Origin: Candidatus Omnitrophota bacterium
Lineage (GTDB): Bacteria; Omnitrophota; Gorgyraeia; Gygaellales; Profunditerraquicolaceae
Direction of reading: 5' to 3'
Length of the DNA: 26,844 bases
NCBI GenBank assembly: GCA_028717985.1
Contig: JAQUMS010000001.1
Span: 1-26,844 of the forward strand
Part shown: positions 2 through 21,300 of the stretch, in pieces
Layout: each line of letters starts with the position of its first letter
Numbering within the stretch: the stretch's first letter is position 1
Position numbers and translations under genes: made by a program
The notes under the pieces: generated by a model
Seen by the model: only the letters and a program-made list of their open reading frames with translations
Told to the model about the DNA's origin: nothing
The model's database searches: none

Positions 2-307
2 AGCCATCAAGAGAGAAACAGCGGCGCCGAAATAAATACTCGACTGAAACATGGATTTAAATTTCACCGCGAACTTTTTATCAAAAGCTTCTTCAAGCAG
101 GAACTGAACAACGGCAGTAAAGAATACAACTTTATACGCATATTCTCCGAATGCAAAGCCGTTTAGCACAACTGACTGATAAAAATAAGCCGTGTTAAAC
201 ACAATATCCCGGTTCATAGCTACCATACCTATGATAAACGTAAGTATATTAAATATCCTCAGATTGGTCTTAGTATACAATTTTAAGACTGCATTATCCG
301 TGGCTGA
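2..307 (-). other. Start of a hydrophobic, probably multi-pass membrane module (truncated by the window edge)
   Basis: After DGG at 308-316: LRIFNILTFIIGMVAM, VVFFTAVVQFLL, SIYFGAAVSLLMA, which are hydrophobic stretches of TM-like character. Family not assignable. Confidence 0.55.
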
Positions 308-3300
308 ACCTCCATCCTGCTCGAAAACTGATTTACCGGATGCCCCGTTAAATGTCATCGCGTCCCAATACATAAGAATATATTTTATGGCGCTGTTATT
401 CCAGGAGAAATCAACTTTGCGTAAATTTTCCAGTATTCGCAGCCAATGGTCTTCCTGAGAATACGTTTCCAGCGCCCTCTGGATCGCTTCCTGCAACGCT
501 TCAGGCGTCGGATCAAAAAACACAAAGCCGTATCCGGTCTTGCGCAAAGGATCATAATTTTCAATCGTATCCGCCAACCCTCCTACATACCGCACCACCG
601 CGGGCGTTCCGTAACGGGCAGCGATCATCTGAGTCAACCCGCACGGTTCATCAAGAGAGGGAACAAGGAAAATATCCGCGGAGGCGTATACGAGATGAAC
701 AATACTTTCATCAAGGAACTTAGGAAGGATGTACGCCCGGCCGCGGAAATCCCACTTCCCTTCAGGGTCGTATTCAAACGGCAGCCAACGAATCTGGTCA
801 ACAGACTGTTTGTCATATTCCCTGCCGGCAACAATGATCTGAGCGTTACGGTTTGCCTTCAAAATGTCGCGAATTTTAGCCGCAAGCAAACCTACTCCTT
901 TTTGGTCATCCAACCGGGCGATCAAAGCGATAACCGGCGCGGTCCGGTCAACTTTTAACCCTAATAATTTTTGGAGCACTTCCTTATTATTGCGTTTTTG
1001 CTCAAAACTTTCCCTGACATTGCCGTGCGCGAAGTCATACCGGAACGGTAAAATAGGATCAGTTGCCGGATTATAGAAATTATAATCAATACCGTTAATA
1101 ATACCGGAAAACCGGAATTCACGTGCTTTCTGTGATAACAACCAATCAAGATCCCTTCCGCCTTCGGCAGTAGTTAATTCGTACGCGTGGCGTTCGCTTA
1201 CGGTATTGGCTCTGTTGGATTTAACGATCCCGCCTTTCAATAAATTCATTGACCCGAAATTATCAAATACACCGCCATATTCATAGGGAAGATTCAACAG
1301 AGAGAACCGATCAAAAGAATGAACACCTTGATGCCGGATATTATTTATTGTCAGTATCGGCTGCATTCTGGAGAAATAATGCCTGAATTCGGGAAGCCCG
1401 TCTTTATAAACCAGAGATAACGCGCTGTCTTTATCATGCGCGTGAATAATATCGTAACTATTTTTATGTAATTCAGGGATATCTTTCATTGCCTGCAATG
1501 ATCCCCGTGATATAAGAATCGCCTGCTCAAGGCTTAGTTGATCCGAGTAAGGATATTCTGCCAATACACTGCCGCTTCCCACAGGTTCCAGCACATATCC
1601 GCGCAGGCGGCCTTTAAGATCGTGAATTCCCGGAAGAGTATGCAGGTTTGTCCTGTACACCTTCACTTCCACGGTCCAGGTACTGCCGATTGGAACCCAT
1701 ACGCTGCCGATATATTCGTAACGTAAATTTTGATCAGCGGGAGAATTAGTCGGCTTACTATATTTAAGGGTAAAGATATCAACATTATGCCCTATTTTAG
1801 CCAATTCCTTGGATAGACCATACCCGACATCGGCCAAACCTCCTACTTTATAGGTAAGACGGGTAACTTCAAGAGCAATTTCCGCGATCTGTAAACTCCG
1901 GAACGGCCTTTCCGGCCAGTCAGGGCGCAATAAAGTGATTACTTTCTTGAAATTAGCCGGCTGTAAATAATTACGTATATTTTTCCATGAACTTTCGTCG
2001 GCGGCGGGGATACGCAGACGGGAAACAGCCCGTAAAACAGTACTCATTAATTTAAGCGCTAATTCTTCGCTCGAAAAATCGTCTAATTTTTCAAAAATGT
2101 AGAGCGTCCGGCTGATAATATCAAAATACATTTCGGGAACCGGACGCGACGCTTCTTTAATAAGAATAATATTGCTTTCCCGTACCGCGCGGTACACATC
2201 TATTTTCCCAACTCCATACGGCAATTCCAATTCAATGCCGGCAATAAGAACCAAGGCATGCAGATACAGATCCACATCACGCTTCGCGGGATCCTTCCAT
2301 TGCGACATAATAACCGGATTCACTCCCTGGATACGGTATCCGCGTTCTTCCAGACGCGCTTTTTCTATCTCTGCATATGCGACATTAATTTCTTTTGTCT
2401 GACCGCGGGCTGATTTTTTCCGGCTGGTTCCGCCATCTTCAAGCACGCGCACTGAAATAGATTTAGCTTCTGCTCCAACTTTACGGATGGTAAACGCGAG
2501 CGGTTCAGCTATGGAAGCCAATAAATAATGGATATCATTCTCGGTTATATTCTCAAACATTTCCTTGGTCGGGACTACGATCTCTCCGCTTATCTCCTGC
2601 CAGCCGAAATCAAGGTATGTTTCATTGATAATAGGGAAAATCGATTTTCTCGGCAATATCACGATCTTTTTCTCCGGGCCGCTCCTCGCGAAGATCAGAT
2701 TATGCGGAATATTATTTCTTAAGAACTGAGCAATAATCATACTTGTCAGACGGGCGACTCCTAACGCGTTCTCCGAACGGACCACGTAACTTTCAGCCGG
2801 ATAATCGACTGTTTTTTCAAACAATACGCCGGAAATATCTTCAACCGTTTCGGTAGCGAATTTCTCCACCGGTATCACACCCCAATAATAGAATCCCTGG
2901 ATATGAAGATGAAACACCCTCGTTCCGCCGCCAAGGCTGTTAAAACCAAGCCTGAAATTGGAAGCCTTGCTCATATCAAGCAGTGCGAGCGCAACACGGA
3001 TCTCGCGTTCACTGATCACCTGAGGAAGGTTAGCTTTACGTTCCGGCACCATAAAGAAATTATAAGCGACTCGGGGCTGAATATTGATAAACAAATCCGT
3101 ATTAACTCCTCCCACGTTCAGCGACATCAGAAGCTCTTGCGGATTGGCTTTATGGAAATTAAATTTAGAAGGATTATAACCCTGGATAGGCGGCATCAAT
3201 TGTTTCATAAGATTTATCGTCATGGGCCGGTCCGGATGGAAAAGAACCTTGAATTTTCCTTCATCCCGTAAGGAAACGCGGGAAATGTCAAAACCAAATA

Positions 3301-6300
3301 AACCCTGTTTGAATTTCCTGTCCCATTCTCTTTTAAGATTCCTGTCAAACTCACTTTCATCTCCTCCGTCATTTTCCCTGTTTTGAGCAATAATGCCTCC
3401 TTGAGGCATGAAACCAGAAGCAGAAAATGCGGCGCCTTTTTCCGGCGCTAAAGGATACTGTATGCCCACGGCAGAAATACCGGCAATTTCTTCCAGCCGG
3501 GCCAACACGGAAGGCACCGAGTAAAGTTCATCAGTATTGAAAATTTTCCCTTCCGCTTTACGATAATTACGGGTATACCCGATAAGCAATTCAACGGTTT
3601 TCGGCGTCACCACCCATTCTTCATCAAAAACATATCCCCTTTTCGCTAACGCGCGGTGTATCGCGCCGAGCATATGGCTGCCAAAACCCGTCACGGTTTT
3701 TAATTGCGGCTGTTTAAGCTGATCTTTAATAATCCGTGCCAACACGTCGCTGTTGACTTCGCCTATCATAAAAAGCTGAAGCACCCGCTTCAATACATCA
3801 TCATTTTCCCGAAGATATTCAAAAATATCGGCATATTCCTGATCTCTCACGCTTAACGACTGTTTCCACTTTTCAGAAACATCCCCTGATTGGATTTCCA
3901 GGAATACCGCCATAATGGGATTATGCGTAATTTCATTGATGTTAAAATTTGATTTTTGCACTTTGATGATGGAAACGGCATTTCTAATCATAACGGCAAA
4001 CAAATAATCCTCTTTCATCAGATCTTGCAGCACGGCATATTGTTTTTCGGATACCACAGCCCTGGTTTCAGCATACACAGAATGGTACGGAAGATTTTCA
4101 TCAAGAGCTCTCAGCACATACCGATACGGGCCTACAATGCCGCTCGCCTGTGCAAGAGTTAATGATGATTTGTGAGCAATAATATCCTTGGCTTTATTAA
4201 GGATAATGAGCCTCTTATCCCAGAAGCCTATACCAAGAGCGGAATCAGCCTGAACGATCAATTCTTTAAGCTCGTCATTCTTTTTAACTTCGATCAATAG
4301 AGCTTCATACTCGGCGCTTGTCATTAAATTTTGCGCTTCGATATCCAAACCGCGATACGATACGTTATCAGCTAAACCTTCGAATATATATATATACCTG
4401 CCAAACAATTTTCGTGCAGACCAAAAATCTATTCTTTTGTCGAGCGCTAAAACTAAAGATGCTTTTTTGATTAACGATCCCGTGATATCGCGTTGATGAA
4501 TATAAATATTTCGCATAGCGTTGTTCACGATCTTGGTAAACTCAATATCCCGCTTTTTGTTCCCCAGAATATTTTCATATTCATCCTGGCTGATATTATC
4601 CCAGGCACAATGGTCTAATTCCTGATACGCCAGGGACCGGGAAAGTCCGCGTAAAACAAAATACGTATTCCCGATCAATTTGACGGCATCTTCCGGAGAC
4701 ATATTCGCGTTCTTTTTCGCGGCCAATACCTGGGCCCTCCCCATTAATATCTTTCTCCAGCCGTTCTTGGCAATAACCATCTGGTCGGCATGTATAATAT
4801 AATCAGCAAACATTTCATCCCGTTTCATTTCACCGAGCAAAAATTCATATGACGCTTTTACAAGGATTTTCTGCCTGCCCACAGGAGATATTTCAAACTG
4901 CTGGGCATGCGCCAGAGAATGAATAATAAGATAATTGTGGTTAATTTTAGCCTTAGCCTGAGTTATGCCCACTATTTCTTCGTCATTCACAATTTTGCGG
5001 GCACTGGCTAAAATTTTATTTTTGATGCCTTCCATCCTTATATTTATAGCCTTGCCGGAGGCGCGGACTATTTTTCTTCCGAAACCGGCGTCATCTACTA
5101 TCTCCCGGGCAAGATAATAATATATCCCTGCGGACAGTTGGCGCCGCGCGTAATCGCTTAGGGAAGAATACGGCATGCCTTCCGCTAAAATCCTCATTAC
5201 CTCAAAATGATACCCGATCAAACCTTCAGCCAACGCCCTGCTGATCTTACCTTCCTGTAAAAGCAGTAAATCCGCCTTGTCCTCCAAAACCTGTTTGTAA
5301 TATTCCGGAGTCACATCGATACCGGAGATACTTCCAGTTACCGCGCTCCTGAAAACAGGATTTCCAGTTAATGTTTCAACTATTTCATTATACGTATGGA
5401 ATGAAACCATTTCTAAACCGTTGCTGTGTAATTCCACGTATTTCAAGCCGCGGGCCAAGCCGAGTAAAACATAGGCATAATTGCCGATAAGTTTAAGACT
5501 ATCTTTAAGAATCAACTTCCCGTTTTCCGAGTCCGCCAATATCTTTGCTCTTTCCCAAACAGACTCGTGTTTAACCTTATCAGCCAAAACCATAGTGTCA
5601 GCTTCTGTTATAACCATTCCGAAAAGTTTATCGTTTACCATCTCGTCCTGCAAATACTCATAGGAATCCTCAGCTATGGTATTACGAAAATCTTCGCGCA
5701 AAGAAGAATACGGAAGGGAAACCGCAAGGGCATGTATAATATAATAGTATCTGCCGACGATATCCCGGGCCTCAAGAATATTCATCACCTCGCCTTTTGC
5801 CTTGATAGCGAGAGCTTTATCCGAAAAGGTTTTCTTTATTTGTAAAATCTTTATATTAACAATCTTGTGGGAGGCGGTTCTAATTGTTTTCTTAAAATGC
5901 GCATCAACGCCCATCAGGCTCAAAAGATATTCATAATTCTCCATTGCGATTTTTCTCTGGGCGCCTTTCTGAAGGCTGTCATACGCTGTACCGTTAGCCA
6001 GCGCCATAATAATATTCAACTGGTATCTGGAAATTAACTTCACGGCTTCCACTTCGCTCACCGGCGCGCGTAAAGCCCCAAGAATATCCGCTTTTTTGAG
6101 CAAAGTATCTTTAATATTCATCACCATTTTCTTGCGTGTTACAAGTATTTCATTCCCGGATTGGTTTTTGATACCGGAAGTAATAACGGTATTTTTATCA
6201 GCTATTCCACCGTCAAAAAACCGTTCGGGGCTTTCAAGGTCAACTTCGCATTTAAATCCGGATTGGGCAGGTTCACAGCTAAACATCCTGTAATATTGGA

Positions 6301-9300
6301 TCCGGGAAATAAGGCGGACTTCAAGCTTTTCAAGCAAAGCGACAAATTTCTTATATTCAGGAATTTCATGTGAACCGACGTATTCAAGATAATCCATCAT
6401 ATATTTTGAATCGGGCATATCTTCAAAAAGCTTGCGCAGGTAATTCATATAATCATGAAAAGAAACACCGCCCTTGCCGTTTACCTGTTTCATGGTAAAG
6501 AGAAAATCCTGTAATCCCGCGCTGTCCGCCATCCATCTGCCGCGAAGCGTATAAAATTCAAACGGTTTCATGTCGAATTTCCCTGAATTAAGCACGGTTT
6601 CCGCATTATCCAAGGTTGCTTTATTGATAAATGCTTCAACCAGGTTTTCTTCCATTTTCTCGTTTAATTTCTCAACAAATCTGAACAGAAAATAAGCTTT
6701 CAGGAAAGACGGCACGGGCTCCTGGGCAATTGTCTGTAAATACGCCATGATCTCTTCCCATCCCTTAACCCCTTTGAACATTGCGTCCATATATTTAATA
6801 AAATCCATAAAATCATTTTCAATAACAGGTTCGGCATGACGGTTAGCTATAAGATTTTTTAATACGGTTTCAAAACTCTTCAACCCGCTCGTCTCCGCGG
6901 TTACCGGACCGGAAACCGTTCTAAACGAAAAACTGTTGACGTTTTTATTCCCGATCATAAGAGTAGCCATCTGTTCTATCGTTAAACCGTTGACCCATGA
7001 TTCCACCAATCGATATTCGGAGCGCCGGGTAAACTGTTTCAGGAGCTCAAGCAGTTCTTTCATTTTTTCCTCGTCACTGATCTGCTTTGACCCGATGAAA
7101 CGCATATGTTTCACGAGTATATCTTTCGTGACGCATCCTTCGCATAAACCCGCGATATACCGGATAAAATGATAAAACGGCGTCCGGATCGTTGTCCCAT
7201 TTTTAAGAAGCATATTCGCCTTATTCATAAAACCGATTATACCCGCGGAATTAGCATACTGCATGCCTTCCGAAGTTTCGAAACCAAAGGGGAACATGCC
7301 GAATTTACCGAATAAAATATTCCGGGCATCGTTTACCTTGAAATCAACGGGGCACAAAGTTTCTATCAATTCATCTCCTTCAAGAGGATCATATTCTTCG
7401 GGAACAATCTCGAAAGACCTTACCTGCTGCCATAGGCCTGACGTCGCGCGGACCGTTCCTTTGAACGGCAAAGGAAAATCTTCCGGGATTGTGAGAGAAT
7501 ATTCAATCACGTTGTCATAAATCTTCCTCACGGGAGAGAACTTCAATCTGATCCCATGATCATTCACCAGTTCAACAAAAATGCTGTCTTCAGGTACCCT
7601 CGAACTGCCGAATGGCGCAAACTCAGGATCAACGCTGATACTAAGCGTTAAAATCAGATTCTTTGCCAGGTTTCCGACCTCTTTCTTTTTACCCATCAGA
7701 TAAAATTCATTTTCATCTTTGAAAATTGAGATCTCTCCCCGGGATGTTGTTGAAGTTAATGTGAGATATTTACTATCTATGCCGATTTCTCCTACCACAC
7801 GGGGATTTACAACCGCCCGTTTTCCTCTGAAACCGTTGTGCCAGAAACGTAAATACGCGGCCGCGGTATAACGAGCGTCAACAAAGCCGCTAATTTTATA
7901 GGCGTATGATTGTAATTGAGAAAGTTCGCCTGACTGATACTGTTCGTTCGCCCATAAGACTACTTTCAAATAAGATTCGGCGCTATCTTTTTCCGGCATT
8001 AAAACATTCCCGGTCATCTTTTCGCGGTTGACCAAATCACCCATAAAAGGAATCATACCTTCCCAATATGGAGTAGCCAACTGTAACCCGCCATTAGCCC
8101 CTATATCAGATTCAGTTGACCCGGCGGCCTCAGTTTCCCTGTCTGAATCCTGGATCTGAACATCGGTAGCGGCTAACGCCTTTCTTTGATCGTCAATGCT
8201 AAACTGGCTCTTAAAAATAAACCGCCCGGAATACACGTCCGGTTCTTTTTCTTTTTTAGATTTTAGATCAGCCTCCAGAGCTTCCAATTCCCCTCTCATT
8301 ACCGGATTCCAACGGGCAACTCCATAAATCACTACCTGTATCCCGGCTTTTACCATAGCTTCGATATTTACGTTGGTAAAAGCACGCTTTCGGCCGGCTT
8401 TTTCCGGAACAAGCCTGCCGAAATAACCGACAACCATCTGATACTGATTTAAACCCATTTCTTTTTTAACATATGATTTTGCCGCTAAAATTTCCAGCGG
8501 CGTAGGATGCAGATAATCACGTGAACCGGTTTTGATCAACGCATCCCTGAAAAATTCCGAAGAATACACGTAATTATCACCGTTAGTAACGCCGAAAAGA
8601 TCAACTGCCGGATCATATTTGTTTACTTCAAACGCGTGAACCGCCGCCACAGCTTTTGAGACATCGGAAGCCCGGACGCCGCCGCTGGTCAAATCCCAGA
8701 CAACTTTCCAGGTGCCGTAATCGTCTACAAAAATGTGCAGGAACAACCACAACCATTCATCCGGAATACCCGCCTTGCGTAAGAAGTTCTTTCCAAATTC
8801 AAAATCATCCGCCCACGCACGGTTATAATACGTGTGAGTAGTCCCGGAGAACAGCGCCGAGTTCATTATTTCAAATGCCTCATCCTTATCCGGCGCGGGA
8901 GCAATACTTTCTTTCTTACTATAAAAAGCCTTTCTAAAGGCGGCAACAGGCAATGTCTGCGCGTCGTTAGAATCTACAACACATGATTTATATTCCTCAT
9001 GAAGCAGTTCTTTTTCATGTTTTTTCTCAACTTCGCGTTTTCTGATCAATTCCAAAGCCGCTTTGTTGAAAAATTCGGTAAACTCCCAAATCGACGCGGG
9101 GCAATCGCACGTGCTGTATTCATAAAGGATGTTAATAATACGGCAGTGATAATTCTCGGGAATATCCCTTATTAAATAAATCGGAATCAGATTAACAGTA
9201 TCACCTCTCTTTACATTCAGGTATCCCTGGGCAACTTCAAACCGGACTTTACATCCCTGAATGAATGTTTCCATTGTTGCGTACGGTTTGATATCGGTTA

Positions 9301-12300
9301 TCGGATTGGGAAGTGATCCGTAATCAACCGTGTACAAATTGCCAAAACTATCCCTTGAATGCAAATACCAGGGAGCAACATAAATGCTATCCGCTCCTAA
9401 TTCAAACATAGCGTTTCCATGATACAATTCAACCCGGCCCAGGCCGCCGGCCATAGGGGAAATTTCCGCTGTTAAATGGTAAATACTTCTCCCTGTCAGT
9501 TCATACGCCTGCATTTTCAACCAATCCTGCACAGCACGTTCATAATCAAGATTTAAAGCAATTGCATCTTCTAACGCGGAGTTTCTCGGACCGCTTAAAA
9601 TCCAATCAGCCATAGTTTTACGGGATGATTCATCAAAAAACATTATTGCCCGGAGAATCACGTGATTTACCTCAACCGGATATCTGCCCCACAAAGCGGT
9701 AACTTTAGCGTATTCCGCGATCACATTAAGAAATTCTTCTTTGCCATGAATAAACCCTTCAGCAAGATCAACATTGATATCTTCCACGTTTCTGGACCAT
9801 ACCGCGTATAACCGGGCATTAAGATCAACGGTAACTTTATCTTCTTCAACGCTAAAATCTTTCCGGTTGCCGCTTTTTGCATTAACAATCAAACCTCTGC
9901 GGCGCAGGCCGTTCAACAAAGAAATCACGTGATCTCTATCCCAGGTAAAACCATGTGCTTCAAAAACATCTTTGGTTTTCTTTAAAATCCTATTTACGGT
10001 AATCTGGCGTGACGATCTTTCATTTAATTCCGAGATTGCCCATACCACCATAAAAGATTTAACCCATTCCGGATCATGAATACCGCGAATAGATTGTTTA
10101 TCCGGGAATGGCCAGGGGATTTCATAACTTCTCTGTCCCGCTTCCGTTCCCGTTGAATAGGCATTCGCAGGAGATATTACATTCCCATTAAGATATCCCG
10201 GATACGTTTCAATACCTCCATCAGACTGCTTCCTCTGCATGATATCTTTGATACGTTCCAAAAATTCATCGTAATCAGCTAAACCCAAATATTGTTTCCC
10301 ATCTATATGAACAACAGAAACGCCCGCTATCTTTAATATTACAGAAATATCGGGAAGAATAACTTCTTCATCCCCCAACGCAACGCGTGTTTGATATTCC
10401 TTAGCTTCTTTTTGAGTAAAATAGAACAAGGTTAATTTTTTATGGTCATATTTAATAAAGAATGTTTTAGGCCTCATCCCGGCTTCTATTTCCATTTCTT
10501 TTAAGACTTTCTGATCAGGTTGAACTGCCGTTATAATGATCCCGCCTTTGCCTTTTCCATTATAAATTTCTTCAAGAGAAGACCCTTCCAGTTGAGATCT
10601 GGAATCTTCGGCCGTTATACCGTTAGCCATCTGGTGGTTAAATCTTTTAAGATTTTCAATTCTTTTCCAGGTAGCAGGAGTGGAAGGAATACGCATTGTC
10701 CTCACAACTGGCTTTTCCCCCCCGTCTCTATAATTTATATCTTTTACTATCTTACTATTAACAAAATTGTCCTTCCCCATTCTGTCCTCAAAAAATTCAG
10801 GGCTATTTTTGTCTCCTAGTTGTAAAAAATCATTTAAATTATTTTCAATATCCAACAAAATCTTATTAATTAATAACAGCTTTTCAGTTTCTAAATTTAA
10901 TTTTGAAATACTCTTTAGAGTAATATATTTATTTATTAAAAAATTTATTTTCAATAGCCTTTCAATATCGTTTTTATTGAATTTTGCTTCGGGGAATCTT
11001 TTTTTATACATATATCGAATCCATTCTGATTTAGCTCGTGCGATAAAAGACAAAGTTGATTCACGTATAATACCAAGTTTACGATCTTCATAAATTAAAC
11101 TTATAGATTTCAATTCTGTAGTAAATATTTTCTTAAAATATGCATCTGAATTATTAATTTGCTGCTGTATACCCGCAGCAATACTTCCGTCAAATATTCC
11201 ATCCCATTCATCTAATTCTTTTTCTTCTCTCTGAGAAAGAGTATAATATCTTTCCACTTCAGCAGGCATCTGTCCGTACACTAATTCCCCTATTTCTGCA
11301 CCCCTTATAAAGGTACGAGCAATAATCTCCCTCCCAAACTCGTGTCCTGGGACAAAAGAGCGGAACCAACAAGAATGAAGACTTATAATATCTTTTTCGA
11401 TTTCGACATCAGCTTTGCCCAAAATTACATTTTTTGAAAAATAATATACTTGGGCTGAAGATAATTTTTCATCATAAAATTTCCACGCTTCAAATATCTG
11501 ATGACTTTCAGGAAACTCCCCATAATTACTAAACATTGGCAATAAACCTGTTTCCTCCAGAAAACCATACAAGATTCCTCGTGTTTCTTTAATGTCCTCT
11601 TTTCCTTCCCCACCGTCTTCTCCAGAGAAATCTTTTACTATTTCATGCAAGATACGAATCATACTTTCTTCTTTATACGCATATTTTCCGTTTATCTCGG
11701 AAAGCTTCACATCGGATACTTTGACAAAATACGATTTAATTCCTTTTCGTGCTAATTCCTCCTTAAGAGTATCCTTATTAAATTCCGCGGGATCTTCGGG
11801 AACAATTTTACTGTATTTTAATTCTCCAATCGCGATCCGTTTTTGGATTTCCGGTTGCTCCAAAATTTTCCTCTGTTCTTCTTTCAGCGCTTGAAACTTC
11901 CAATACGTTGCGGCATCAATCTCCTGAGGATCAAACAGAACTATATAATCACAGATATCCTTAAATTTAAAACTTTTGAAGGAAGTATTCATCCGAATGG
12001 AGCGTTCAATCAACTCTATCTGTTGTATTACAGAAAGACCTTTACTTTCCGTATCCTGCATTATTTTAAACATAAAAATTCTGGGGATATCTTTTCTGGC
12101 TGCCATTTCTTGAGGGATGCCTTCCGTCATCAAATTCGGCAGTAAAGATGTCACAAAACTACAATCGCCAAAAATAATCGCCTGTTTCGTTGAACGTATA
12201 CCTTCAATAGCTTCGAGATTCGCATATGAATATTCACCGGATTTCCGAAACGCATATGTCCTTATTTTTCCCTGTTGTACTCCTACTGCTTTCATTTCAA

Positions 12301-15300
12301 CATTCCTAAAAATAACTTTTTCTATTGGAGTCAAATGATAATCTTTAGCGTCGGATATATTGGTTTGTTCTTCTACCATACGGCTTTTAAATTCAATAAA
12401 AGAATGATTAATTTTAAGAAAAAACCAAGAGGTATTTGTTGGTAAAACATAATCCTGGTTCCGATATCGTATAAAAGTTTTACCTTCGTCTCCTTTATCC
12501 TCACTAATTGTAAATTTTTCACCGTTACATCTTAAAATAACACTGCCATTCTTATTAACGGTTAATTTTATTTTCTTTCCGCCAAGGGTAAAAGAAACTC
12601 CTTTTCTGCTAATCAAATGAAATTTATCTGTTTTTAATGGTGTGGTCCTAAAGAAAATTTTTCGTTCTTTCACATTTTTGCCATCTTCTATTCTCTCCAC
12701 ATTTATTACAATCCCCTCTACTTTCGTGTAATAAAAATTCCCGTTCGCCTTGCCGATAACCATAACTTCATCATTAATTTTAACTCCCATTCCCTGCAAA
12801 ATAGCCGCCATGGAAGACTGGTCAAAAGAACATGGCACGGCCAAACCATTGATAGCGCCTACCATTTCATAGACGCCCGGATATACTCTTCGTTCATTAC
12901 TAATATGTTGATTGCCCTTTTTCAATTCTCCGGTCAAATATCTGCTCATGACGTAAAAAAGATTTTGCCAGCTTGCTCTATTAACCCCAAAACTCGCCCC
13001 ATTCAAACTCTCGGTTATAATACCGGGAGCAACCCATTCCCGATCGATTCTCCGGGCAACAGAAAACATATTAGCGCAAAAGAAGTTCCAGTCTACAGGA
13101 AGATTATCACGAAAACGGAATGTAATATCTTTGATGTTTTCAAAAATCTGTTCCTCAACCGACTTTCCTGTAATCCTTTTCAATGTCAACAATTCTATTT
13201 TAGAATCACTCAAAGTAAATATGCTCGGGAAAACGCCAATATCTCCGGTCGCTAACGGATATTTATCCCATCCTGGAACATTCAATAATGAATCTTCCAG
13301 CTTTCGTATGTGGCCACCGTCATCAGAAACCCCATCTATCGCAAGAACAATTAATCTTTTATAATTCCTGTATTTATCGCCTGCTTTTTTCATAAAATAA
13401 TTAACTAACGATTTTAAAAAAGAAGTGGTTCTAATCCCTGCGCCTCCAATCCAAATGTACTCGATTGGAGGGGCACGCGCAAGTTTTGTAAAATTAAGGT
13501 TTGAATAAAGAGATTTTGAGTCTTTAATTTCAAGGATACCAACAATTCCCGCTACAATTTCATCTAAGAATCTTCCGGTGTGATCGGCTTCCACTTTAAG
13601 TATTTGCAGTACTTCATCGGCATCTTTCTGATATAATCTTTCAAATAAAACAAGATTCTGTTTATAATCTTCCTTACGGCTCATACCTAAGCCGCCGTCG
13701 TTTTGACTGGGGGCGGTTATTTCAGATTCAGATATTCTTATCAATGCTTCCAGTTCTTTAATCCCGAATAATCTCTCTCCTCTATGTTCTCTGGCGTATT
13801 CAACCGCACCTTTAAGCACCAATCCTGTCCCCACTTCATTCCCACCTACATAATTTTTATGCACAATATCCATGACATCTTTCTTTCCCTTAGACGTCAC
13901 ACTCACGCTTCTCTCAAATCCCATCTCCTCATACGCCGGCCAATCGTTCCCACCCTTCTTTTCGTCATCTCCCAGGTATATCGCATCCAGTTCTTCTTGT
14001 TCTTCTGCTTCCTCATTTAACGCGTTCAAACGGTATCCTGTATATTCCTTAATATTCCCCTCTTTATCAAACACATTCAAACTCGCCGCTCCATTGGCTA
14101 CAACTATAAACCGGTTCCGAATCTCTACCGGCAATGCATCTTCTGCTAATATCCTTTGTAATGTCAATCCTAAATCATTTCCCGAGATCAACATATATAC
14201 CCCGCCTGCATTCAAGTATTCTATTAACGCCCTGTATGCCGCGCTTTTCTTCAATATCGGGTTCTCTGTTGCAGTCGGTTTTCCATATAACGTTCCATCT
14301 CCATCTGACATCACGATTGTCATAGTCTTCCTTGCGTCTATTACGATTCCCGCTTCATATCCTGCCACTTCAAGGATTTCTACCAGATGGCTTCGTACGT
14401 ATCTGATCGGTAATGCTTTATCTACTCCGGCGATATTTGCTTCCACTGTCATGAATCCGCCCATCTTCAACGACATCTTCTCCGCCCCAGGCAATCTCCT
14501 AAATTCTTTCATTGTATCTTCTCGATAATTCAACGGTATCCCGATTATCGCTACCTGCGCTGCTTCTCCACTTGATTCATTCCTGCCTCTTACTTCTATA
14601 CGCGGAATACTACTACTATCGCGCTTTAATAAGGTTTCTGTGCTGTATTTTGCCGGTTCTTTTCCATATTCTTCTACTGCTTCCCACAACCCCTGCACTT
14701 TCGATAGGTCAGCATACGCGGATTTTCCGCCAGTACTCAGTTTCTCTAAGAATTTACGAATCTGCCTCCCTCCTTCTTCTACAAGCATCTCGGTCAATTC
14801 TTGACTTAATAAAGTACTGATTATATTATATTTTTGTTTAAGATTGAAAAATGTTCCTATAATATCATGATCATAAACATTAACACTAGCACAAAAATGT
14901 TCTAAATAAAGGTTGTCAACCAACAATAAAACCGACTGCTTTAAGGGCCTAAATTCTTCTATTTTTTCATATAATATTTTATGTTCCTCTTCTGTTAAAA
15001 GTTCTTTAACATAGAATAAAGTCATATGGTAAAGTACGGGATTAAATTGATTAAATTCCAAAAAAGACTCTTTCACACCCTTATTTATTGAATCGAATAT
15101 TTTATAGTCAGAAACGCCATCTGGATAAAATTCCAAGATAATAATGCCCCCTTTAAATGCTCCGATTTTTATCCCTGACAATCTTAAAGAACCAGGAAAT
15201 GAATCTTCTACTTTGTTTCTTAATAATAAAATAACATCATGATTATTAGGTGTTGCATTATTAATTACTCCGAGTGTAATATGTAAATCATGCTCTTTAA

Positions 15301-18300
15301 CAAAAATCATCTTTTTCTGTAATGATTCCGGCAATACCCCATATAATCCTTGCTGTATACTTAATATCTTTTTGGCATTTTCATCGTCAGGCCTTATAAT
15401 TGTTGATAAACCTTCTAATGGCAACGGATTATTATCTTTATCAATACAAACTGCAATCCCCAAATCTTTTCTCGTCTTTGCTACTGCTGCTCTACTAACT
15501 TTATAAACTTGCTTATACGCATCCTTATATTTTTGTTCAAGAGATGACTTATCATCTTTATTCTTTATTGTATTATTTTTTCTTTCTCCGCCGTCATTTT
15601 CAATTTTAGAGGGTTCATGTTCAACCCTGATCTTCTCAATAACCCCAACCAGATTCTCATTCTCATACAATGGACTCTGCGTCTCAATTCCTGTAACCTT
15701 GCTCTCATCTATCCTGACTATCTCTATTCCTCTCGCCTGAAGATCCGCCTCTTCTCCCTCTCCAAATAACGGCTGTCCTCCCTTTACATGCTTGCTAACC
15801 TGCGCGCTTCCCTGCAATACCAGCTTCGCGTCTTTCCCTTTAATCTTTACTTCCCCTAATTTTACTTTCGCGTCTTCTGATAATTCAGGCGCTATCACAT
15901 GCGAAATTATCTCTTCTATCTTTACTTCCCTTCCCAATACTTTGCTTATATGCCACGTTATCGCCTCAAGCTGTTTATTCAACGTCAATTGCTCGCTTAT
16001 ATTCAACTCATATTCTTCTTCTTCCTTTATATCCTTACTTTCAACTACCTTACCTTCTTTCTCTATCCTTACATCCTTTGATGTTTCCAAATCTGCTTTC
16101 ATCTTAGCTATATATACTACAGGCACTCCTAATCTTCTCCTGTTTACCAATTCTTCCGCTACTTCCTTATATAACAATACAGGCATCAATGATGTCCATA
16201 AGGACCCGTTCCCCATCACGATTGCTTTCGCCCTGCTCAACGCTTCAACCGCTTGCCTGCTCGCTTTTGGATAATTCTCCGAATTTATATCCAGTTCTAT
16301 AAAATTATTCGCTTCTTTACCTATATCTACCCGGTGCGTAAAGTATTCTTCCCTTATAAATTCTTTATGCGCCTTATCCGTCATGATCGTCTGCGCAGCT
16401 ACTAATCCACCATTCTCATATTTTCCTACCAGCGCACTATGTTCATAATCGTAACTTACGGGGATAAACTGCGTTTCTCCCAATGCCATCAGTTTATCAA
16501 GATTCGGGAATCCTACCGCTTGGCTGTCTTTTCCTCCACTCAGTAATCCCATGTCGTACGCCGCTCCCATCAACAACAAATTCGCGCTCGACATCTTCTT
16601 TAACGGTATGATACCTTGTCCTACTAATTCACGGTCTACCAACTCTCCCAGATTTAATACGCTGGATAAAAATATAAGATAATCTGTTGATTTTTCAAAT
16701 TCTTCGGATGGATTCTTTAATATCTTCCTGATGAGGCTCTTGATCTCTTCTTTTTGGGTGGGTTCTTCTATTGCAGTCAATACTTCACTTAATCTCTTTT
16801 CCCACACAGGATACAACTTCTCTCCCGTTATTCGCCCTTTAGTCGTTACGTATTCCGGCATTTTATCCGCGTCTGATTCACTCCAGAATAACGTGAATAT
16901 TTTGAAGTTATCGTTGCTTAAAAATATCGCCAGCCCTGACGCGTCTCCCGGAGGGATAAAATACATCCCCAGATTCTTGAACAGGCTCGCCATGATTTCC
17001 CAGCTCGCTCCTCCGTCATCTGATGATGATATTATACATGCTATCTTCCTCAATCCTTTGGCTATCAGCCTCTGTAAAAACGTTGTGGTCGCTTTCCCGC
17101 CGCCACCAAGGTATACTAAGTCTAATAACCCTTTCTTTTCCGGCGGACCTCTCCCTTCATACTGCTCTAAGATTGATTCCTTATATTTCTGGTAATACCC
17201 ATCCTGAAAATATCCTGCCAATATTCTCCCAACGCTTAATCCCGTGTTCTTCTTCACATCCCATACCGCTTCTTCCAACTGCCGGTTATTCCTCTTCAAA
17301 TTGTCTTTATACACCGATTCCAGAAAACCCAATGTCCTCGCCGCACGCGCATCTATCCCTGCATAGAATTTCATGAATTCTATTCCCTCTCTGCCTCCGT
17401 ATATTTTATCTGCTCCTGCAAAATACTCTTCCGCTGTCTTTGATACCTCATAAATATTTTTCATCTCTTCCAACGCTTCGTATAACTCTTCACCTCTCTT
17501 CATCCCTATCCCAAGCTGGTATAAATCTATCCAACTGGCACGGTTTAGATAATTTAAATTGAACTGCCGGTATACTTCCGACAATACTTCCATCCGTTCC
17601 GCAAACGTCAATGACCTGTTTACTCTCTTTACGTTCTGCCTCTTCAGATATGTCTCTGCCGCGTTTAAACAATAGTCTCCTGCTTCCCTCAACTCTACAA
17701 ACGTCTTCCCTTTGGACATACCATCCAGAAAATAATACACCACTCCCAATCCAAACCCGATATGCTTAAATCCTTCTACCTCATAATTTTCATCCGTCTT
17801 CTCTACGATATCATTTATATATCTTCTTACCCCTTCAACATTCTTAAACGGCAAATCTTCTGAATACACCTGCAGATTCCCGAATAATAACGCATCTTTC
17901 CCTTCTATCTCTCTGCTTAATAAGTAATCCCTTAACGCATGGTCTTTCCCTGTATGTCTCTTACGGATATCTATTGATGTAATGCCCGACTCCCTCACTG
18001 TGTATTCTTCCCAGAACAATGAATGGTATTTCTTCAACAATTCTATCGTCCCTCTGCAACATTCTTCTCGCGGCGACATCTCTCCTTCTTCTATATTAAC
18101 TATCTCCAGCTTCTTCGACGGCAGATGGATTATACTCACGCTATACACTCTTCCTTTGGCATCACGATGCAGGATCACTTCCGGCTTCTTGAACGGATAG
18201 TTCGGGTATTTGTTCCTCATCAAGCTCTTGTTCCCTTCATACTCCGCCCAGAATCGATTCGCCTGTTCCTTTAATACGCTTTCTATTACTTCTACCTGTT

Positions 18301-21300
18301 TCTCCGGAATATAATTCGAATTGTTGTAATCGTTCTCTGTCAACGGTATTCCGTATTCATTGTATTCTACCTTAAATGTCCCAGCCGACGCGTATACTGC
18401 CAGGTTCTTTCTTACGTCATACGGCAGGTATTTTACTATTCTCGTCGCTAATCCTTTTTCTCCCGTATGATCATCATCGTAATACCGTAAGTTACTGATC
18501 AACACGATCTTCTGCCCTTTCCTCAGCAGTTCCACCAACGGCTCCCGCACAAAGCTTTCTTTTAATGTCCCTTTACGGAATTTGTCATACGGCAAAATTA
18601 CTCCATCCGGACCTCCCAATACTATTACTTCCGGATTCCCGCTCCTTTCGTAGCCGCCGTCGCTAGTCATCCACGCTTTCAGCATATCCAGCGCAGGTTC
18701 AAGGATCGCTTTCACCTCGTCCAAATCCTTTGCGTCCCTTACTTCGAATATAATTGTCGGCGATCCGCCCAACGCCATCCTGATCACGTTGGCTATCCCA
18801 TACACATACGTCGCATCATCTACCGTGATATTCTCTTCTACCATCTGTGTCCCTAATCCTTTACCGTATGTATTGGTATATACTATCGCTATATTGAACA
18901 CATTCTCAGGATGCGACATGATCGCTTCTATACCCGTATGCGCCACTCCAGGCAACCCTAATAACGGACATGTGATCCCTTTCCCTGCGAACCGCTCTAC
19001 TATTCCTCGTGCAATCGCTTTGATCTTCGGGTTCTCCGCGTCCACTTCCATGAACGTCAACGGCATATACATCATTTTCTCTTTTCTGCCTGTGAACATC
19101 TTGATCAGATACATCCCCAACGCTTCTGCCGCGCTGTAGCCTTCTGTCTCTATCTCTTCTCCCTTTTCTACCGCGACTGATATCTTCATCTTATCCTGAT
19201 CTTGAGTCTCTATCACTACCTGCTGATTCAATGTTACAGGTTTATTATCTGTCTTTCTCATCGCATCCATAAACGATTTCCCAAACGCAGCTTCCATATC
19301 CGATATCTTGCTTCCGCCCGCTTCTGCAAAATCGCTCTTGAACACTTCTTCTGCTATCGCGCTCGTTAATACTCTCACCACTCTCGATTCTGCAATCATT
19401 AATTTTGTTCCCACCTCAACTATCGCTTCCATGAATGTCCTGAAATCTTCACCTTCCGCCTCTTCATATCCACGCCGTATAATTCGTTTTGTTTTATCTT
19501 TCTTATCCACATCTATGCTCTTTTCAGATTTTATACGGTTCTCGGTTTCTTTCGCCTGTATTTTGGATATAACGTCTTCAAAGGTTACACGGATATCTTT
19601 ATCTCCGCGCGCTTTCTTGGCTTTCTCTATCTCAAACATCGCCGCAGTGATCTCTCTGACGAATTTTACCGCGGGATTCGAATTCGCGTCCTGTTTCGTC
19701 AAATAGGTAAAGTACACTACCATATCCTGTAATAACGAGCTTGTCCTTCCGATGACTTCCAAATTATTCCTTAAATCTTCCTTTATATCTAATGATACTA
19801 TGATTACCGGGATCCCTCTTCTTTCAAGGCTTTCCGCATATTCGTATGCTTGTCTGTAATTACCATTGTTCCGGTTCAATAAGAAGATCGGCAACTGGGT
19901 ATTCCCTGCCTGCTCAAACACTGTTTCATATAAGGTACGGTCTGATTCCAAGCCATATCCTACCAACACGTTGTTATTCGTTCCGCCGGCAATGTTCTTG
20001 TTTGCCCCTTCGTTATTTAACTGCAGGAATTCTTTGGCTATGAATCTTAAATCATTGTCGTAGATTATCGCGAACCGGTTATGCCCATTCATTCTCTGCC
20101 TGAACAGCATTTCCGCAAGTTTGATTCCACCACTTTTTAAACCATTGCTATACGCTAATTCCTCATTGGCTCCTGCCATGGTCGAAACGTAGTATTCCAA
20201 ATATTTTCTCGCTTCTTCCACGTCTTTTAATCCGGCTACTAACCCTAAGTACAACGGGATATACACCATCAGGGTTTTCCTGTTCATCTGTCTGCCGCCG
20301 ATATCCCCGGGTATATCGTCTATAACCAATATTCTCGCGTCTGCATCTTTCATTAATTCTTTGCCTGCTTCATTTAATTTTCCGCTGTTGGCTGCTACAA
20401 TTCTCTGTTTAAACCGGTCTTTGGTCGCGTTGAAGAAATCCACTGTTTCTTTCGTGCTCCCGCTTCGGGACATTTCGAATATTAATGTGTTCTTGTTATT
20501 CGCTCCAGCAGGAATGATCTTCAAATGCGCCGGGTTATTCACTACCACCCATTTCACATGGATACCTCTCATCTCAAAGTATTTGTTCAATGCCCACGCC
20601 AGCTGATGTGTGTACATTTCATTCGCGCCAATCCCTGATGTGAACACGTATTCGATTCTTCCTAAGTCTACTGTCGCAAAATACGCGTCTAACCGCTCAA
20701 TTAATTCTTTCAGATCAGGATATTTACTTGCTCCTTTGATTGCGGTTAATCCAAGGAACCTGCCTGTGAAATCGTTCATGTTATCTCTGAACACAAACGA
20801 TACCATACCTGCTGTTTCTCTCATGAATCTCAAATACTCTGTTATTGCCCCGCCTTCTACACTGCTTTCGCCGCCTTCTATTCCATATCCTTCCGCTTGT
20901 ATATCCACGCTGATCTTTTTATCCGCGAATTCGCCTTTTCCGTATTCTTTTACCTGTCTTAGTTTGTAATCTTCTACCACTGGCCGGAAGAACTTCACTC
21001 CCTCTAATATCTCTGCCGCTTCGTCTGTTCCCAATCCTGCCGCTTCTGCCATTCCTTTTACAAACGCCACGCTGTCTATGGATGTCCTTAAGATCTGTAC
21101 CACTCTCTTGTAATCGCTGATTCCAAGCATCCTCATTACATAATCCAGTTCCACTAAGAATCTTCTCGCGTCTAAGCTAAAGGTACCTTGTCCTTCATTC
21201 GCTAAGACTTCCCCGCCGTCTCTATAGCTCTTAGAGTTTGCGTCCTTCGTCCTTCGTCCTTCGTCCTTCGGAGAAAATTCTCCGCCGTCGTTAGTGTTAA

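What the first reader, a model, noticed from the sequence alone, without database searches (positions are those of the whole stretch)
2438..3361. Bacterial VTC2/GDPGP1-like GDP-hexose phosphorylase directly upstream of glycogen synthase
Seen: close motif-for-motif match, including FRLGFNSLGG..HLHIQ. Known: this subfamily is characterised mainly in plants (ascorbate synthesis) and animals (GDP-glucose sanitising). Inference: here it could supply or remove the NDP-glucose used by the neighbouring GT5, as an alternative to GlgC. It would also be informative for the origin of the eukaryotic family.
Basis: partly seen in the sequence, partly recalled or inferred. Interest (0 to 1): 0.68.

Follow-up and report, generated by a model that had tools for sequence, protein, structure and literature searches.

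The report
GDP-sugar phosphorylase domain in giant protein
This stretch encodes an intact relative of the plant/animal GDP-hexose phosphorylases (VTC2/GDPGP1), but as one domain of a giant multi-enzyme protein of an uncultured, probably Omnitrophota bacterium, where the domain recurs widely and its position next to a glycogen synthase looks incidental.

Summary
Window 2438-3361 (minus strand) encodes a 308-aa domain bounded by DGG on both sides. It is a full-length member of the GDPGP1/VTC2 family: 193 bits (E 4e-61) against a profile of named eukaryotic enzymes only, phmmer E 1e-26 to an insect GDPGP1, and a confident model (pLDDT 94) with the GalT/Apa-branch HIT fold (Z 23 to yeast Apa2). 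The HLHIQ motif and all family-invariant residues are kept. One conserved Asn is uniquely Phe.

It is not a separate gene. The whole contig is one >8,947-aa open frame. The domain occurs in 99 of 401 sampled genomes of the phylum, almost always inside giant frames and mostly beside other sugar-phosphate or nucleotide-sugar enzymes. A glycogen synthase is adjacent in only 1 of 40 other loci. The genome has its own GlgC and ManC, so a role as a "GlgC alternative" is not supported. The tree backbone is unresolved and says nothing about eukaryotic origins.

Bacterial members of this family, and Omnitrophota multi-enzyme giant proteins, are already catalogued or described. This scan has also noted the same domain before in other Omnitrophota genomes. 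Verdict: a new member of a known kind, of moderate-low interest. Substrate and compartment remain untested.

The parts
2438..3361 (-). GDPGP1/VTC2-like HIT (GalT/Apa-branch) domain, 308 aa (P0001 residues 7828-8135)
   Evidence: phmmer E 1e-26 to a named GDPGP1. 193 bits against a eukaryote-only profile. AF2 model with pLDDT 94.3 and pTM 0.92. Z 23.3 to Apa2, 10.4 to At5g18200 and 8.5 to GalT.
2897..2911 (-). HIT motif H151-L-H153-I-Q155. H153 corresponds to the nucleophilic second histidine (H238 of Arabidopsis VTC2).
   Evidence: Translation. H153 is invariant in 60 prokaryotic and 21 eukaryotic sequences, and H151 is present in 45/60 and 21/21. The role of the second histidine is from the literature.
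2927..2956 (-). FRLGFNSLGG block, holding the family-invariant N141 and the conserved S142
2912..2914 (-). F150, where at least 90% of the family has Asn directly before the His triad. Unique to this module among the 81 sequences compared.
3362..3370 (-). DGG tripeptide at the N-terminal border of the domain
   Evidence: DGG occurs 20 times in the ORF against 2.4 expected. The model shows the folded domain starting right after it.
2429..2437 (-). DGG tripeptide at the C-terminal border of the domain
   Evidence: The junction is bridged by independent contigs in runs X1 and X2.
317..2428 (-). Next module in the same frame: about 180 aa of unassigned N-terminal region, then a GT5 + GT1 glycogen/starch synthase of the ADP-glucose type (Pfam domains at about window 449-1888)
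   Evidence: PF08323 115 bits and PF00534 53 bits. TIGR02095 glgA 336 bits, cut-off 328.
3371..6205 (-). Preceding module in the same frame (P0001 residues 6880-7824), with no Pfam assignment.
   Evidence: No Pfam hit. Borders. Not studied further.
2..26842 (-). Single stop-free frame of 8,947 aa, open at both ends: a fragment of a giant multi-enzyme gene

Best explanation
The segment encodes an intact, probably catalytic domain of the GDPGP1/VTC2 family (Pfam GDPGP1_N + GDPGP1_C, GalT/Apa branch of the HIT superfamily). It is embedded in a giant multi-enzyme protein of an uncultured landfill bacterium, inferred to belong to Omnitrophota.

By analogy with the characterised plant and animal enzymes, it should interconvert an NDP-hexose and a hexose-1-phosphate through a covalent nucleotidyl-His153 intermediate: NDP-hexose + Pi <-> hexose-1-P + NDP, a reversible reaction. 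A GDP-hexose such as GDP-glucose is the leading candidate substrate.

It is one of many shuffled sugar-phosphate and nucleotide-sugar modules in such proteins. Its position next to an ADP-glucose-type GlgA module is specific to this lineage and is not a conserved functional pair. It is not needed as a substitute for GlgC. The most plausible local role is to return off-pathway NDP-hexose (for example GDP-glucose, a known side product of GDP-mannose pyrophosphorylases like the genome's ManC) to the glucose-1-phosphate pool that GlgC and GlgA draw on.

Shown: family membership, fold, retained catalytic motif, fusion, phyletic spread and partner domains. Inferred: activity, substrate, direction, compartment, and whether the domain is released at the DGG borders.
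For: Family:
- 551 homologues, with named eukaryotic GDPGP1/GGP among the best.
- 193 bits, E 4e-61, full length, against a eukaryote-only profile.
- Pfam's own GDPGP1_N and GDPGP1_C hit the closest relatives, P0002 (35% identical) and the Omnitrophica MAG protein P0171.

Fold: pLDDT 94.3. Apa2 Z 23.3 over 266 residues, ADP-glucose phosphorylase 1z84 Z 10.4, GalT 1gup Z 8.5.

Catalytic residues: Q114, N141, H153 and G259 are invariant and present. H151, Q155, E256, R45, N93 and P96 are also present. The mechanism of characterised members is from the literature.

Recurring module: 99 of 401 genomes of the phylum, nearly all inside frames of 1,000-74,522 aa. Neighbours include UDPGP, PFK, PGM/PMM, a dTDP-glucose-dehydratase-like domain plus GalE, a fucose-pyrophosphorylase domain, PGI-like plus DUF218, and GT5.

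Genome: GlgC, ManC and glucose-1-P cytidylyltransferase are present.

An animal precedent links GDPGP1 to glucose-1-P and glycogen levels.

The junctions are confirmed in two samples.
Against: - No activity data exist for any prokaryotic member.
- N150, at least 90% conserved and directly before the His triad, is Phe here and nowhere else among 81 sequences. H101 is Asn. Activity or specificity may be altered.
- Partner domains handle UDP-, dTDP-, ADP- and possibly GDP-sugars, so nucleotide specificity is open.
- The module is an orphan long branch with at most 35% identity to anything.
- The compartment is unknown. A 2026 preprint argues that much of the metabolic content of some Omnitrophota giants lies outside the cytoplasmic membrane, where NDP-sugars would be scarce. 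Here only one strong hydrophobic segment (residues 1074-1092) precedes the module in the fragment, and the true N-terminus is missing.
- The Omnitrophota assignment is inferred from named relatives and giant-gene content, not from marker genes.
Confidence: 0.6

Rival explanations
1. One reading: the domain runs in the synthetic direction (glucose-1-P + NDP -> NDP-glucose + Pi) and hands the product to the fused GT5 synthase, as a pyrophosphate-independent alternative to GlgC.
For: The reaction of VTC2 is reversible in vitro. The two domains are contiguous in one polypeptide, with junctions confirmed. A second lineage (G189, L055/P0137) also has GT5 and this domain adjacent, though in the opposite order. 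The same ORF holds PGI-like, HAD and GT35-like modules.
Against: The genome has a canonical GlgC. The GT5 module fits the ADP-glucose-type model, whereas the characterised relatives of this domain use GDP-sugars. Adjacency occurs in 1 of 40 other loci, about the chance level given 3 full GT5 modules in 161,423 aa. None of the other P0001 modules co-occurs with the domain elsewhere.
Confidence: 0.12
2. It is a GalT-like hexose-1-phosphate nucleotidyltransferase or phosphorylase acting on UDP- or ADP-hexoses rather than GDP-hexoses, comparable to the ADP-glucose phosphorylase At5g18200 or to a Leloir-type GalT.
For: Same fold as 1z84 (Z 10.4), 6k5z (Z 10.1) and 1gup (Z 8.5). A sister module in G266 directly follows a GalE above cut-off, and others lie with UDPGP. 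The neighbour here is an ADP-glucose-type GlgA.
Against: Sequence similarity is to GDPGP1/VTC2 (193 bits) and not to GalT or ADP-glucose phosphorylase families. The module has no Pfam GalT hit at E<=10. Structural Z-scores to the GalT types are less than half that to Apa2.
Confidence: 0.15
3. It is an Ap4A / dinucleoside-polyphosphate phosphorylase, like yeast Apa1/Apa2.
For: The best solved structural match by far is Apa2 (Foldseek E 5e-11, Z 23.3). Some relatives give weak hits to ATP_transf and Ap4A_phos_N.
Against: No Ap4A_phos_N or ATP_transf hit for the module at E<=10. Ap4A_phos_N was found in 0 of 151 genomes of the phylum. No GDPGP1/VTC2 structure came up in the PDB searches, so Apa2 is simply the nearest solved relative. 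The sequence profile evidence points to GDPGP1. Partner domains are sugar enzymes.
Confidence: 0.06
4. It is a degenerate or repurposed domain, for example a nucleotide-sugar-binding or scaffold module without turnover. This could result from relaxed constraint in a fast-evolving giant gene.
For: The unique N150F change next to the catalytic histidines and H101N. A long orphan branch (end branch about 1.5 changes per column). Sister modules vary at H151 (Q, S or D in 13 of 60).
Against: All four family-invariant residues, both histidines and Q155 are retained. The model is very confident across the whole domain. H101N also occurs in bona fide eukaryotic members.
Confidence: 0.1

Closest known systems
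GDP-D-glucose phosphorylase 1 (GDPGP1 / C. elegans MCP-1; Pfam GDPGP1_N PF26217 + GDPGP1_C PF26216)
   Same: Full-length homology (E 1e-26 to an insect orthologue; 193 bits to a eukaryote-only profile). Same conserved blocks and HxHx[Q/H] motif. A functional link to glucose-1-P and glycogen pools is reported in animals.
   Different: About 25-31% identity. Here it is a domain inside a giant bacterial protein, not a roughly 385-aa cytosolic enzyme. It has Q rather than H as the fifth motif residue, and F in place of the conserved Asn before the triad. Its activity is untested.
GDP-L-galactose phosphorylase VTC2/VTC5 (GGP) of plants
   Same: Same family. The HLH-x-Q motif has Gln as in plants and algae, and the nucleophilic second histidine is kept.
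   Different: No evidence for ascorbate synthesis in prokaryotes. No L-galactose pathway context. Weaker similarity (E 8e-12 to the Asparagus protein).
Yeast Ap4A phosphorylase Apa2 (PDB 4i5t/4i5v/4i5w)
   Same: Closest solved fold: a two-lobed GalT/Apa-branch HIT fold, Z 23.3 with 266 aligned residues.
   Different: Only about 15% identity. The Ap4A phosphorylase Pfam models do not hit the module.
Omnitrophota giant multi-enzyme proteins ('multi-enzyme metabolic clusters', bioRxiv 10.64898/2026.06.07.730766; 'Archaeovorins', bioRxiv 10.1101/2023.11.21.568195)
   Same: A stop-free frame of thousands of residues tiled with GT5, GT1, HAD, HEAT and similar domains. C39 peptidase domains lie in giant frames of the same genome. 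HIT content is mentioned in passing in the 2026 preprint.
   Different: Term searches of those papers found no occurrence of 'GDP', so the GDPGP1/VTC2 identity of the HIT domain appears unnamed there. They could not describe borders, whereas here DGG marks them.
Stand-alone bacterial GDPGP1/DUF4922 proteins (uncharacterised)
   Same: Same family. P0010 (315 aa, bacterial gene neighbourhood) carries GDPGP1_N/C and nests among the phylum's modules in the tree. Atlas clusters exist in Pseudomonadota, Bacteroidota, Planctomycetota and other phyla.
   Different: They are single-domain proteins. None has a known function.

Membership tests
GDPGP1/VTC2 family (GDP-hexose phosphorylases; Pfam PF26217 GDPGP1_N + PF26216 GDPGP1_C) | Significant full-length sequence similarity to known members or a family profile | tested here: met
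   phmmer E 1.2e-26 to Planococcus GDPGP1. 193 bits, E 4e-61, model positions 34-342 of 364 against a profile of 17 named eukaryotic members.
GDPGP1/VTC2 family (GDP-hexose phosphorylases; Pfam PF26217 GDPGP1_N + PF26216 GDPGP1_C) | Direct hit of the Pfam GDPGP1_N / GDPGP1_C models above threshold | not testable with these tools
   The local Pfam copy lacks PF26216 and PF26217, so the empty scan is uninformative. Even the bona fide GDPGP1 P0005 gave no hit. Precomputed annotations show both models on the closest relatives, P0002 and P0171.
GDPGP1/VTC2 family (GDP-hexose phosphorylases; Pfam PF26217 GDPGP1_N + PF26216 GDPGP1_C) | HxHx[Q/H] HIT motif with the nucleophilic second histidine | tested here: met
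   H151-L-H153-I-Q155. H153 is invariant in 81 sequences. Its role is described in the literature.
GDPGP1/VTC2 family (GDP-hexose phosphorylases; Pfam PF26217 GDPGP1_N + PF26216 GDPGP1_C) | Other family-conserved residues (R45, F69, N93, P96, P106, Q114, N141, S142, N150, E256, G259) | tested here: inconclusive
   All are present except N150, which is Phe and unique to this module. H101, common in the family, is Asn, as in some eukaryotic members.
GDPGP1/VTC2 family (GDP-hexose phosphorylases; Pfam PF26217 GDPGP1_N + PF26216 GDPGP1_C) | Phosphate-dependent cleavage of GDP-D-glucose or GDP-L-galactose | not testable with these tools
   Needs an enzyme assay. No prokaryotic member appears to have been characterised.
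GalT/Apa1 branch of the HIT superfamily | Two-lobed (duplicated HIT-like) fold | tested here: met
   AF2 pLDDT 94.3. Apa2 Z 23.3, At5g18200 Z 10.4, uridylyltransferase 6k5z Z 10.1, GalT 1gup Z 8.5, and single-domain HIT proteins Z about 5.
Ap4A phosphorylase (Apa1/Apa2; Pfam PF19327 + PF09830) | Hit to Ap4A_phos_N / ATP_transf models | tested here: not met
   No hit at E<=10 for the module. PF19327 was found in 0 of 151 genomes of the phylum.
Omnitrophota multi-enzyme giant proteins | Very long stop-free frame tiled with many distinct enzyme domains, including GT5 | tested here: met
   More than 8,947 aa with HAD, CofD x3, DUF218, HEAT and GT5+GT1. 15 further contigs of the MAG are whole-contig open frames. 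The class is described in the preprints.
Omnitrophota multi-enzyme giant proteins | The organism belongs to phylum Omnitrophota | tested here: inconclusive
   Inferred only. A cluster-mate of a close relative is labelled Candidatus Omnitrophica/Omnitrophota, and same-phylum genomes carry the module in frames of up to 74,522 aa. Look-ups of housekeeping proteins returned no names.

The most novel reading that the evidence does not exclude
The DGG-bounded GDPGP1-like domain and the fused GlgA may form a working pair on a membrane-anchored assembly line. The HIT domain would make NDP-glucose from glucose-1-P and NDP without spending NTP or releasing pyrophosphate, and the synthase would extend a glucan beside the C-terminal hydrophobic segment. 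More broadly, the deep and diverse prokaryotic radiation of this domain (several long-branched clades against essentially one eukaryotic clade) may mean that the eukaryotic GDPGP1/VTC2 enzymes descend from such bacterial modules.
Probability: 0.1. Interest if true: 0.7.

Novelty: new member of a known kind. Interest (0 to 1): 0.35.

Why it matters
The GDPGP1/VTC2 family has been studied only in plants (the committed step of vitamin C synthesis) and in animals (clearing GDP-glucose, with a link to neuronal glycogen). This work shows that an intact relative is a common building block of the giant multi-enzyme proteins of a bacterial phylum: about a quarter of the sampled genomes carry it, usually beside other sugar-nucleotide enzymes. 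That gives a concrete, easily expressed 308-aa unit, with natural borders, for asking what the prokaryotic members do. It also names one of the unannotated "HIT" parts of these giants. It does not by itself reveal a new pathway. The glycogen-synthase neighbour is probably a product of module shuffling, and the question of eukaryotic origin stays open.

Tried and rejected
- **Local Pfam and NCBIfam scans of the module** gave nothing. I first read this as evidence against membership, then found that the local Pfam copy lacks PF26216 and PF26217, so the result is uninformative.
- **PDB sequence search:** only a chance hit.
- **The search for related loci on genome contigs:** the alignment was too diverse, and the single-protein query found no confirmed relative. 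I replaced it with the genome search over the phylum.
- **Outgroup rooting:** no Ap4A phosphorylase was found in the phylum, and other outgroups are only about 15% identical, so the trees are unrooted. The backbone stayed unresolved in the careful tree.
- **Naming the organism from housekeeping proteins:** no names were returned.
- **Adler 2011 and Linster 2007** could not be read. Their content is cited only through papers that were held.
- **Rejected: the DUF4922-versus-GDPGP1 dichotomy**.
- **Rejected: a conserved GT5 partnership**.
- **Rejected: a eukaryote-to-bacterium recent transfer.** The domain is spread over many families of the phylum with deep divergence.
- **Not possible:** residue-level inspection of the model's active site, because coordinates are not exposed.

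Full report
**What is there.** The whole 26,844-base window is a complete contig (C1) of a 1.63-Mb, 299-contig MAG that is about 80% complete. It consists of a single minus-strand frame without a stop, 8,947 residues long and open at both ends. Fifteen further contigs of the MAG are likewise whole-contig open frames of 1,500-4,200 residues. Pfam finds HAD, three CofD/YvcK-like domains, DUF218, HEAT and a GT5+GT1 glycogen synthase in the frame. The tripeptide DGG occurs 20 times, against 2.4 expected from shuffling (maximum 9 in 2,000 shuffles). It is the most enriched tripeptide and sits at module borders. The finding's coordinates, 2438-3361, are exactly one DGG-to-DGG unit of 308 residues (P0001 7828-8135). 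The quoted motif FRLGFNSLGGGTRVFHLHIQ is at 2897-2956.

**Is the similarity real?** Yes. An exhaustive HMMER search of 1.84 billion representatives gave 551 hits at E<=1e-3 and 159 at E<=1e-10. Named hits include GDPGP1 of the mealybug Planococcus citri (1.2e-26, covering query residues 3-248) and a coral GDPGP1-like protein (1e-21). They also include Diplonema GDP-L-galactose phosphorylase, Balamuthia and Prasinoderma GDPGP1, and an Asparagus GDP-L-galactose phosphorylase 2-like protein. A profile that I built from 17 named eukaryotic proteins alone scores the module 193 bits (E 4e-61) over model positions 34-342 of 364. The initial lack of any Pfam hit is not evidence against this. The local Pfam copy does not contain PF26216/PF26217 (GDPGP1_C/GDPGP1_N), and it also returned nothing for the bona fide insect enzyme. 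Precomputed annotations show both Pfam models on the module's closest relatives: P0002 (35% identical, from GCA_001804395.1) and P0171 (an Omnitrophica MAG protein with the architecture NAGPA + DUF218 + GDPGP1_N + GDPGP1_C).

**Fold and catalytic residues.** With an 80-sequence alignment, AlphaFold2 gives pLDDT 94.3 and pTM 0.92. The ordered domain starts at residue 4 and ends at residue 307, so the DGG borders coincide with the fold's borders. No GDPGP1/VTC2 structure came up in any of the PDB searches. The nearest solved fold is yeast Ap4A phosphorylase Apa2 (Foldseek E 5e-11; Z 23.3 over 266 residues). It is followed by a DUF4931 protein (Z 13.0), Arabidopsis ADP-glucose phosphorylase At5g18200 (10.4), a uridylyltransferase (10.1), E. 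coli GalT (8.5) and single-domain HIT proteins (about 5). This is the GalT/Apa branch of the HIT superfamily, to which VTC2 is assigned in the literature. In VTC2 the second histidine of HxHxQ forms the covalent guanylyl intermediate, and the reaction is reversible. In a comparison of 60 prokaryotic and 21 named eukaryotic sequences, Q114, N141, H153 and G259 are invariant, and all four are present here. H151, Q155, E256, R45, N93 and P96 are present too. Two conserved positions differ: N150, directly before the triad, is Phe here and in no other sequence, and H101 is Asn, as in a few eukaryotic members. I therefore regard the domain as probably active, with a caveat about altered activity or specificity.

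**Distribution.** Searching 401 genomes of the same phylum with the alignment found the domain in 99 (82 of 340 high-quality genomes). Almost all matches lie inside open frames of 1,000 to 74,522 residues, sometimes in two or three tandem copies. This MAG has a second, very divergent copy (23% identity, motif NHFHYQ) on contig C169, in another giant-frame fragment that also carries a cytidylyltransferase-like domain. Stand-alone bacterial members exist. P0010 lies between an ECF sigma factor, Fe-SOD and a two-component system and carries GDPGP1_N/C. The ESM Atlas lists bacterial clusters with GDPGP1_N/C and DUF4922 in Pseudomonadota, Bacteroidota, Planctomycetota, Thermodesulfobacteriota and Actinomycetota. 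DUF4922 is not a rival family. It is the domain that papers report in human, mouse and worm GDPGP1 and in plant GGP, and it hits some sister modules over their N-terminal half.

**Phylogeny.**
- A FastTree of 191 sequences puts the query in a group of modules from the phylum's genomes, metagenomic large proteins and a few bacterial stand-alone proteins. All named eukaryotic sequences fall in another group.
- A careful IQ-TREE (58 rows, LG+C20) leaves the backbone unresolved. Nineteen of the 21 eukaryotic rows form one clade (84/92), the prokaryotic modules form several deep, long-branched clades, and the query is an orphan branch with no supported sister.
- A single eukaryotic clade is not rejected (p-AU 0.315).
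- There is no usable outgroup. Ap4A_phos_N is absent from 151 genomes searched, and the solved relatives are only about 15% identical.
- Nothing can therefore be said about the direction of descent.

**The glycogen-synthase neighbour.** The next module (window 317-2428) passes NCBIfam's model for glycogen/starch synthase of the ADP-glucose type (336 bits, cut-off 328). Logan contigs of two landfill-metagenome runs bridge both DGG junctions of the HIT domain without a difference (X1 1694-3001 and 3104-5973; X2 2170-2825 and 3189-3469). The fusion is therefore real DNA.

The pairing is not conserved:
- Of 30 large metagenomic proteins with the domain, two also have GT5, and none shares any other module of this ORF.
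- In 40 loci from 39 genomes (161,423 residues of module-bearing frames), a GT5 profile finds three full GT5 modules. Only one is adjacent (L055, genome G189), and there the order is reversed. That is about what GT5 density alone predicts.

What does recur around sister modules is sugar-phosphate and nucleotide-sugar enzymology:
- UDPGP.
- Phosphofructokinase, a PGM/PMM domain and a fucose-pyrophosphorylase domain with HEAT repeats.
- A dTDP-glucose-dehydratase-like domain plus a GalE above cut-off, directly upstream in G266.
- PGI-like plus DUF218.

This supports hexose-1-P / NDP-hexose chemistry but leaves the nucleotide open.

**GlgC.** The MAG encodes a canonical glucose-1-phosphate adenylyltransferase (576 bits, cut-off 470). 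It also encodes a mannose-1-phosphate guanylyltransferase/isomerase (535 bits, cut-off 373) and a glucose-1-phosphate cytidylyltransferase. An alternative to GlgC is thus unnecessary. A ManC is the kind of enzyme known, from my own knowledge of Adler et al. 2011, to make GDP-glucose as a side product. In animals, loss of GDPGP1 lowers glucose-1-P and glycogen. I therefore favour a salvage or interconversion role that feeds the glucose-1-P pool, with modest confidence.

**Compartment and processing.** Only one strong hydrophobic segment (residues 1074-1092) precedes the module in the fragment. A hydrophobic stretch follows the GT5 module at the C-terminal end. The real N-terminus is missing, so the side of the membrane is unknown. 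The 2026 preprint argues that some giants expose their metabolic domains outside the cytoplasmic membrane. The genome has four Peptidase_C39 (double-glycine peptidase) matches, three of them inside large open frames. West-Roberts et al. suggested C39-mediated cleavage of such giants but lacked cleavage sites. DGG is a candidate site, and this is untested.

**Novelty.** Omnitrophota giant proteins rich in GT5 are published. So is a class of "multi-enzyme metabolic cluster" giants with starch-synthase, PGM and scattered HIT content. Pfam and the Atlas already catalogue bacterial GDPGP1-family proteins. Earlier follow-ups of this scan reached the same reading for this domain in other Omnitrophota genomes, and my own tests agree with them independently. 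I found no paper that names the GDPGP1/VTC2 identity of the domain in these giants or that characterises any prokaryotic member. I class the finding as a new member of a known kind.

Noticed in passing
window 308-26725 (17 DGG borders); loci L065, L070, L073; L053, L067, L072, L074, L081, L084, L086; L051, L056, L058, L064, L082, L087: Short border motifs differ by lineage. DGG flanks the HIT module here and in some same-family genomes. In other lineages the same borders carry [RK]SE[VM]R or SSP[ILV]. These could be lineage-specific linker or processing signals.
   Followed up: partly
G000 contigs C170:1683-2039, C294:425-817, C32:2047-2316 (loci L008, L010, L011): Peptidase_C39 (double-glycine peptidase) domains lie inside large open frames of the same genome. 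This fits the idea that GG-containing borders are cleavage sites.
   Followed up: no
G000:C169:2145-2999 (L088): A second, very divergent GDPGP1/DUF4922-like domain (23% identity, canonical NHFHYQ) sits in another giant-frame fragment, together with a cytidylyltransferase-like domain at residues 44-174.
   Followed up: partly
L059 (G266:C40), residues about 2300-3340 of the frame: A dTDP-glucose-4,6-dehydratase-like domain, a GalE (281 bits, above cut-off), the GDPGP1-like domain and a Peptidase_M50 domain follow one another in one frame. The arrangement resembles a Leloir-like epimerase plus HIT transferase pair.
   Followed up: partly
L057, L058, L064, L070: Two or three GDPGP1-like domains occur in tandem within a single giant frame in several genomes.
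   Followed up: no
window 822-1225 and 6861-7000: Run X3 holds a variant with 15 differences in 404 bases of the GT5 module and 7 in 140 bases further up. A related strain is therefore present in another sample of the same landfill study.
   Followed up: no
window 2-307 (P0001 residues 8846-8947): After the last DGG, the frame continues into a hydrophobic, membrane-like stretch directly behind the glycogen-synthase module. The contig ends inside it.
   Followed up: no
tool library: The local Pfam-A copy lacks PF26216 and PF26217, although precomputed annotations use them. Empty Pfam scans for this family are therefore false negatives.
   Followed up: yes
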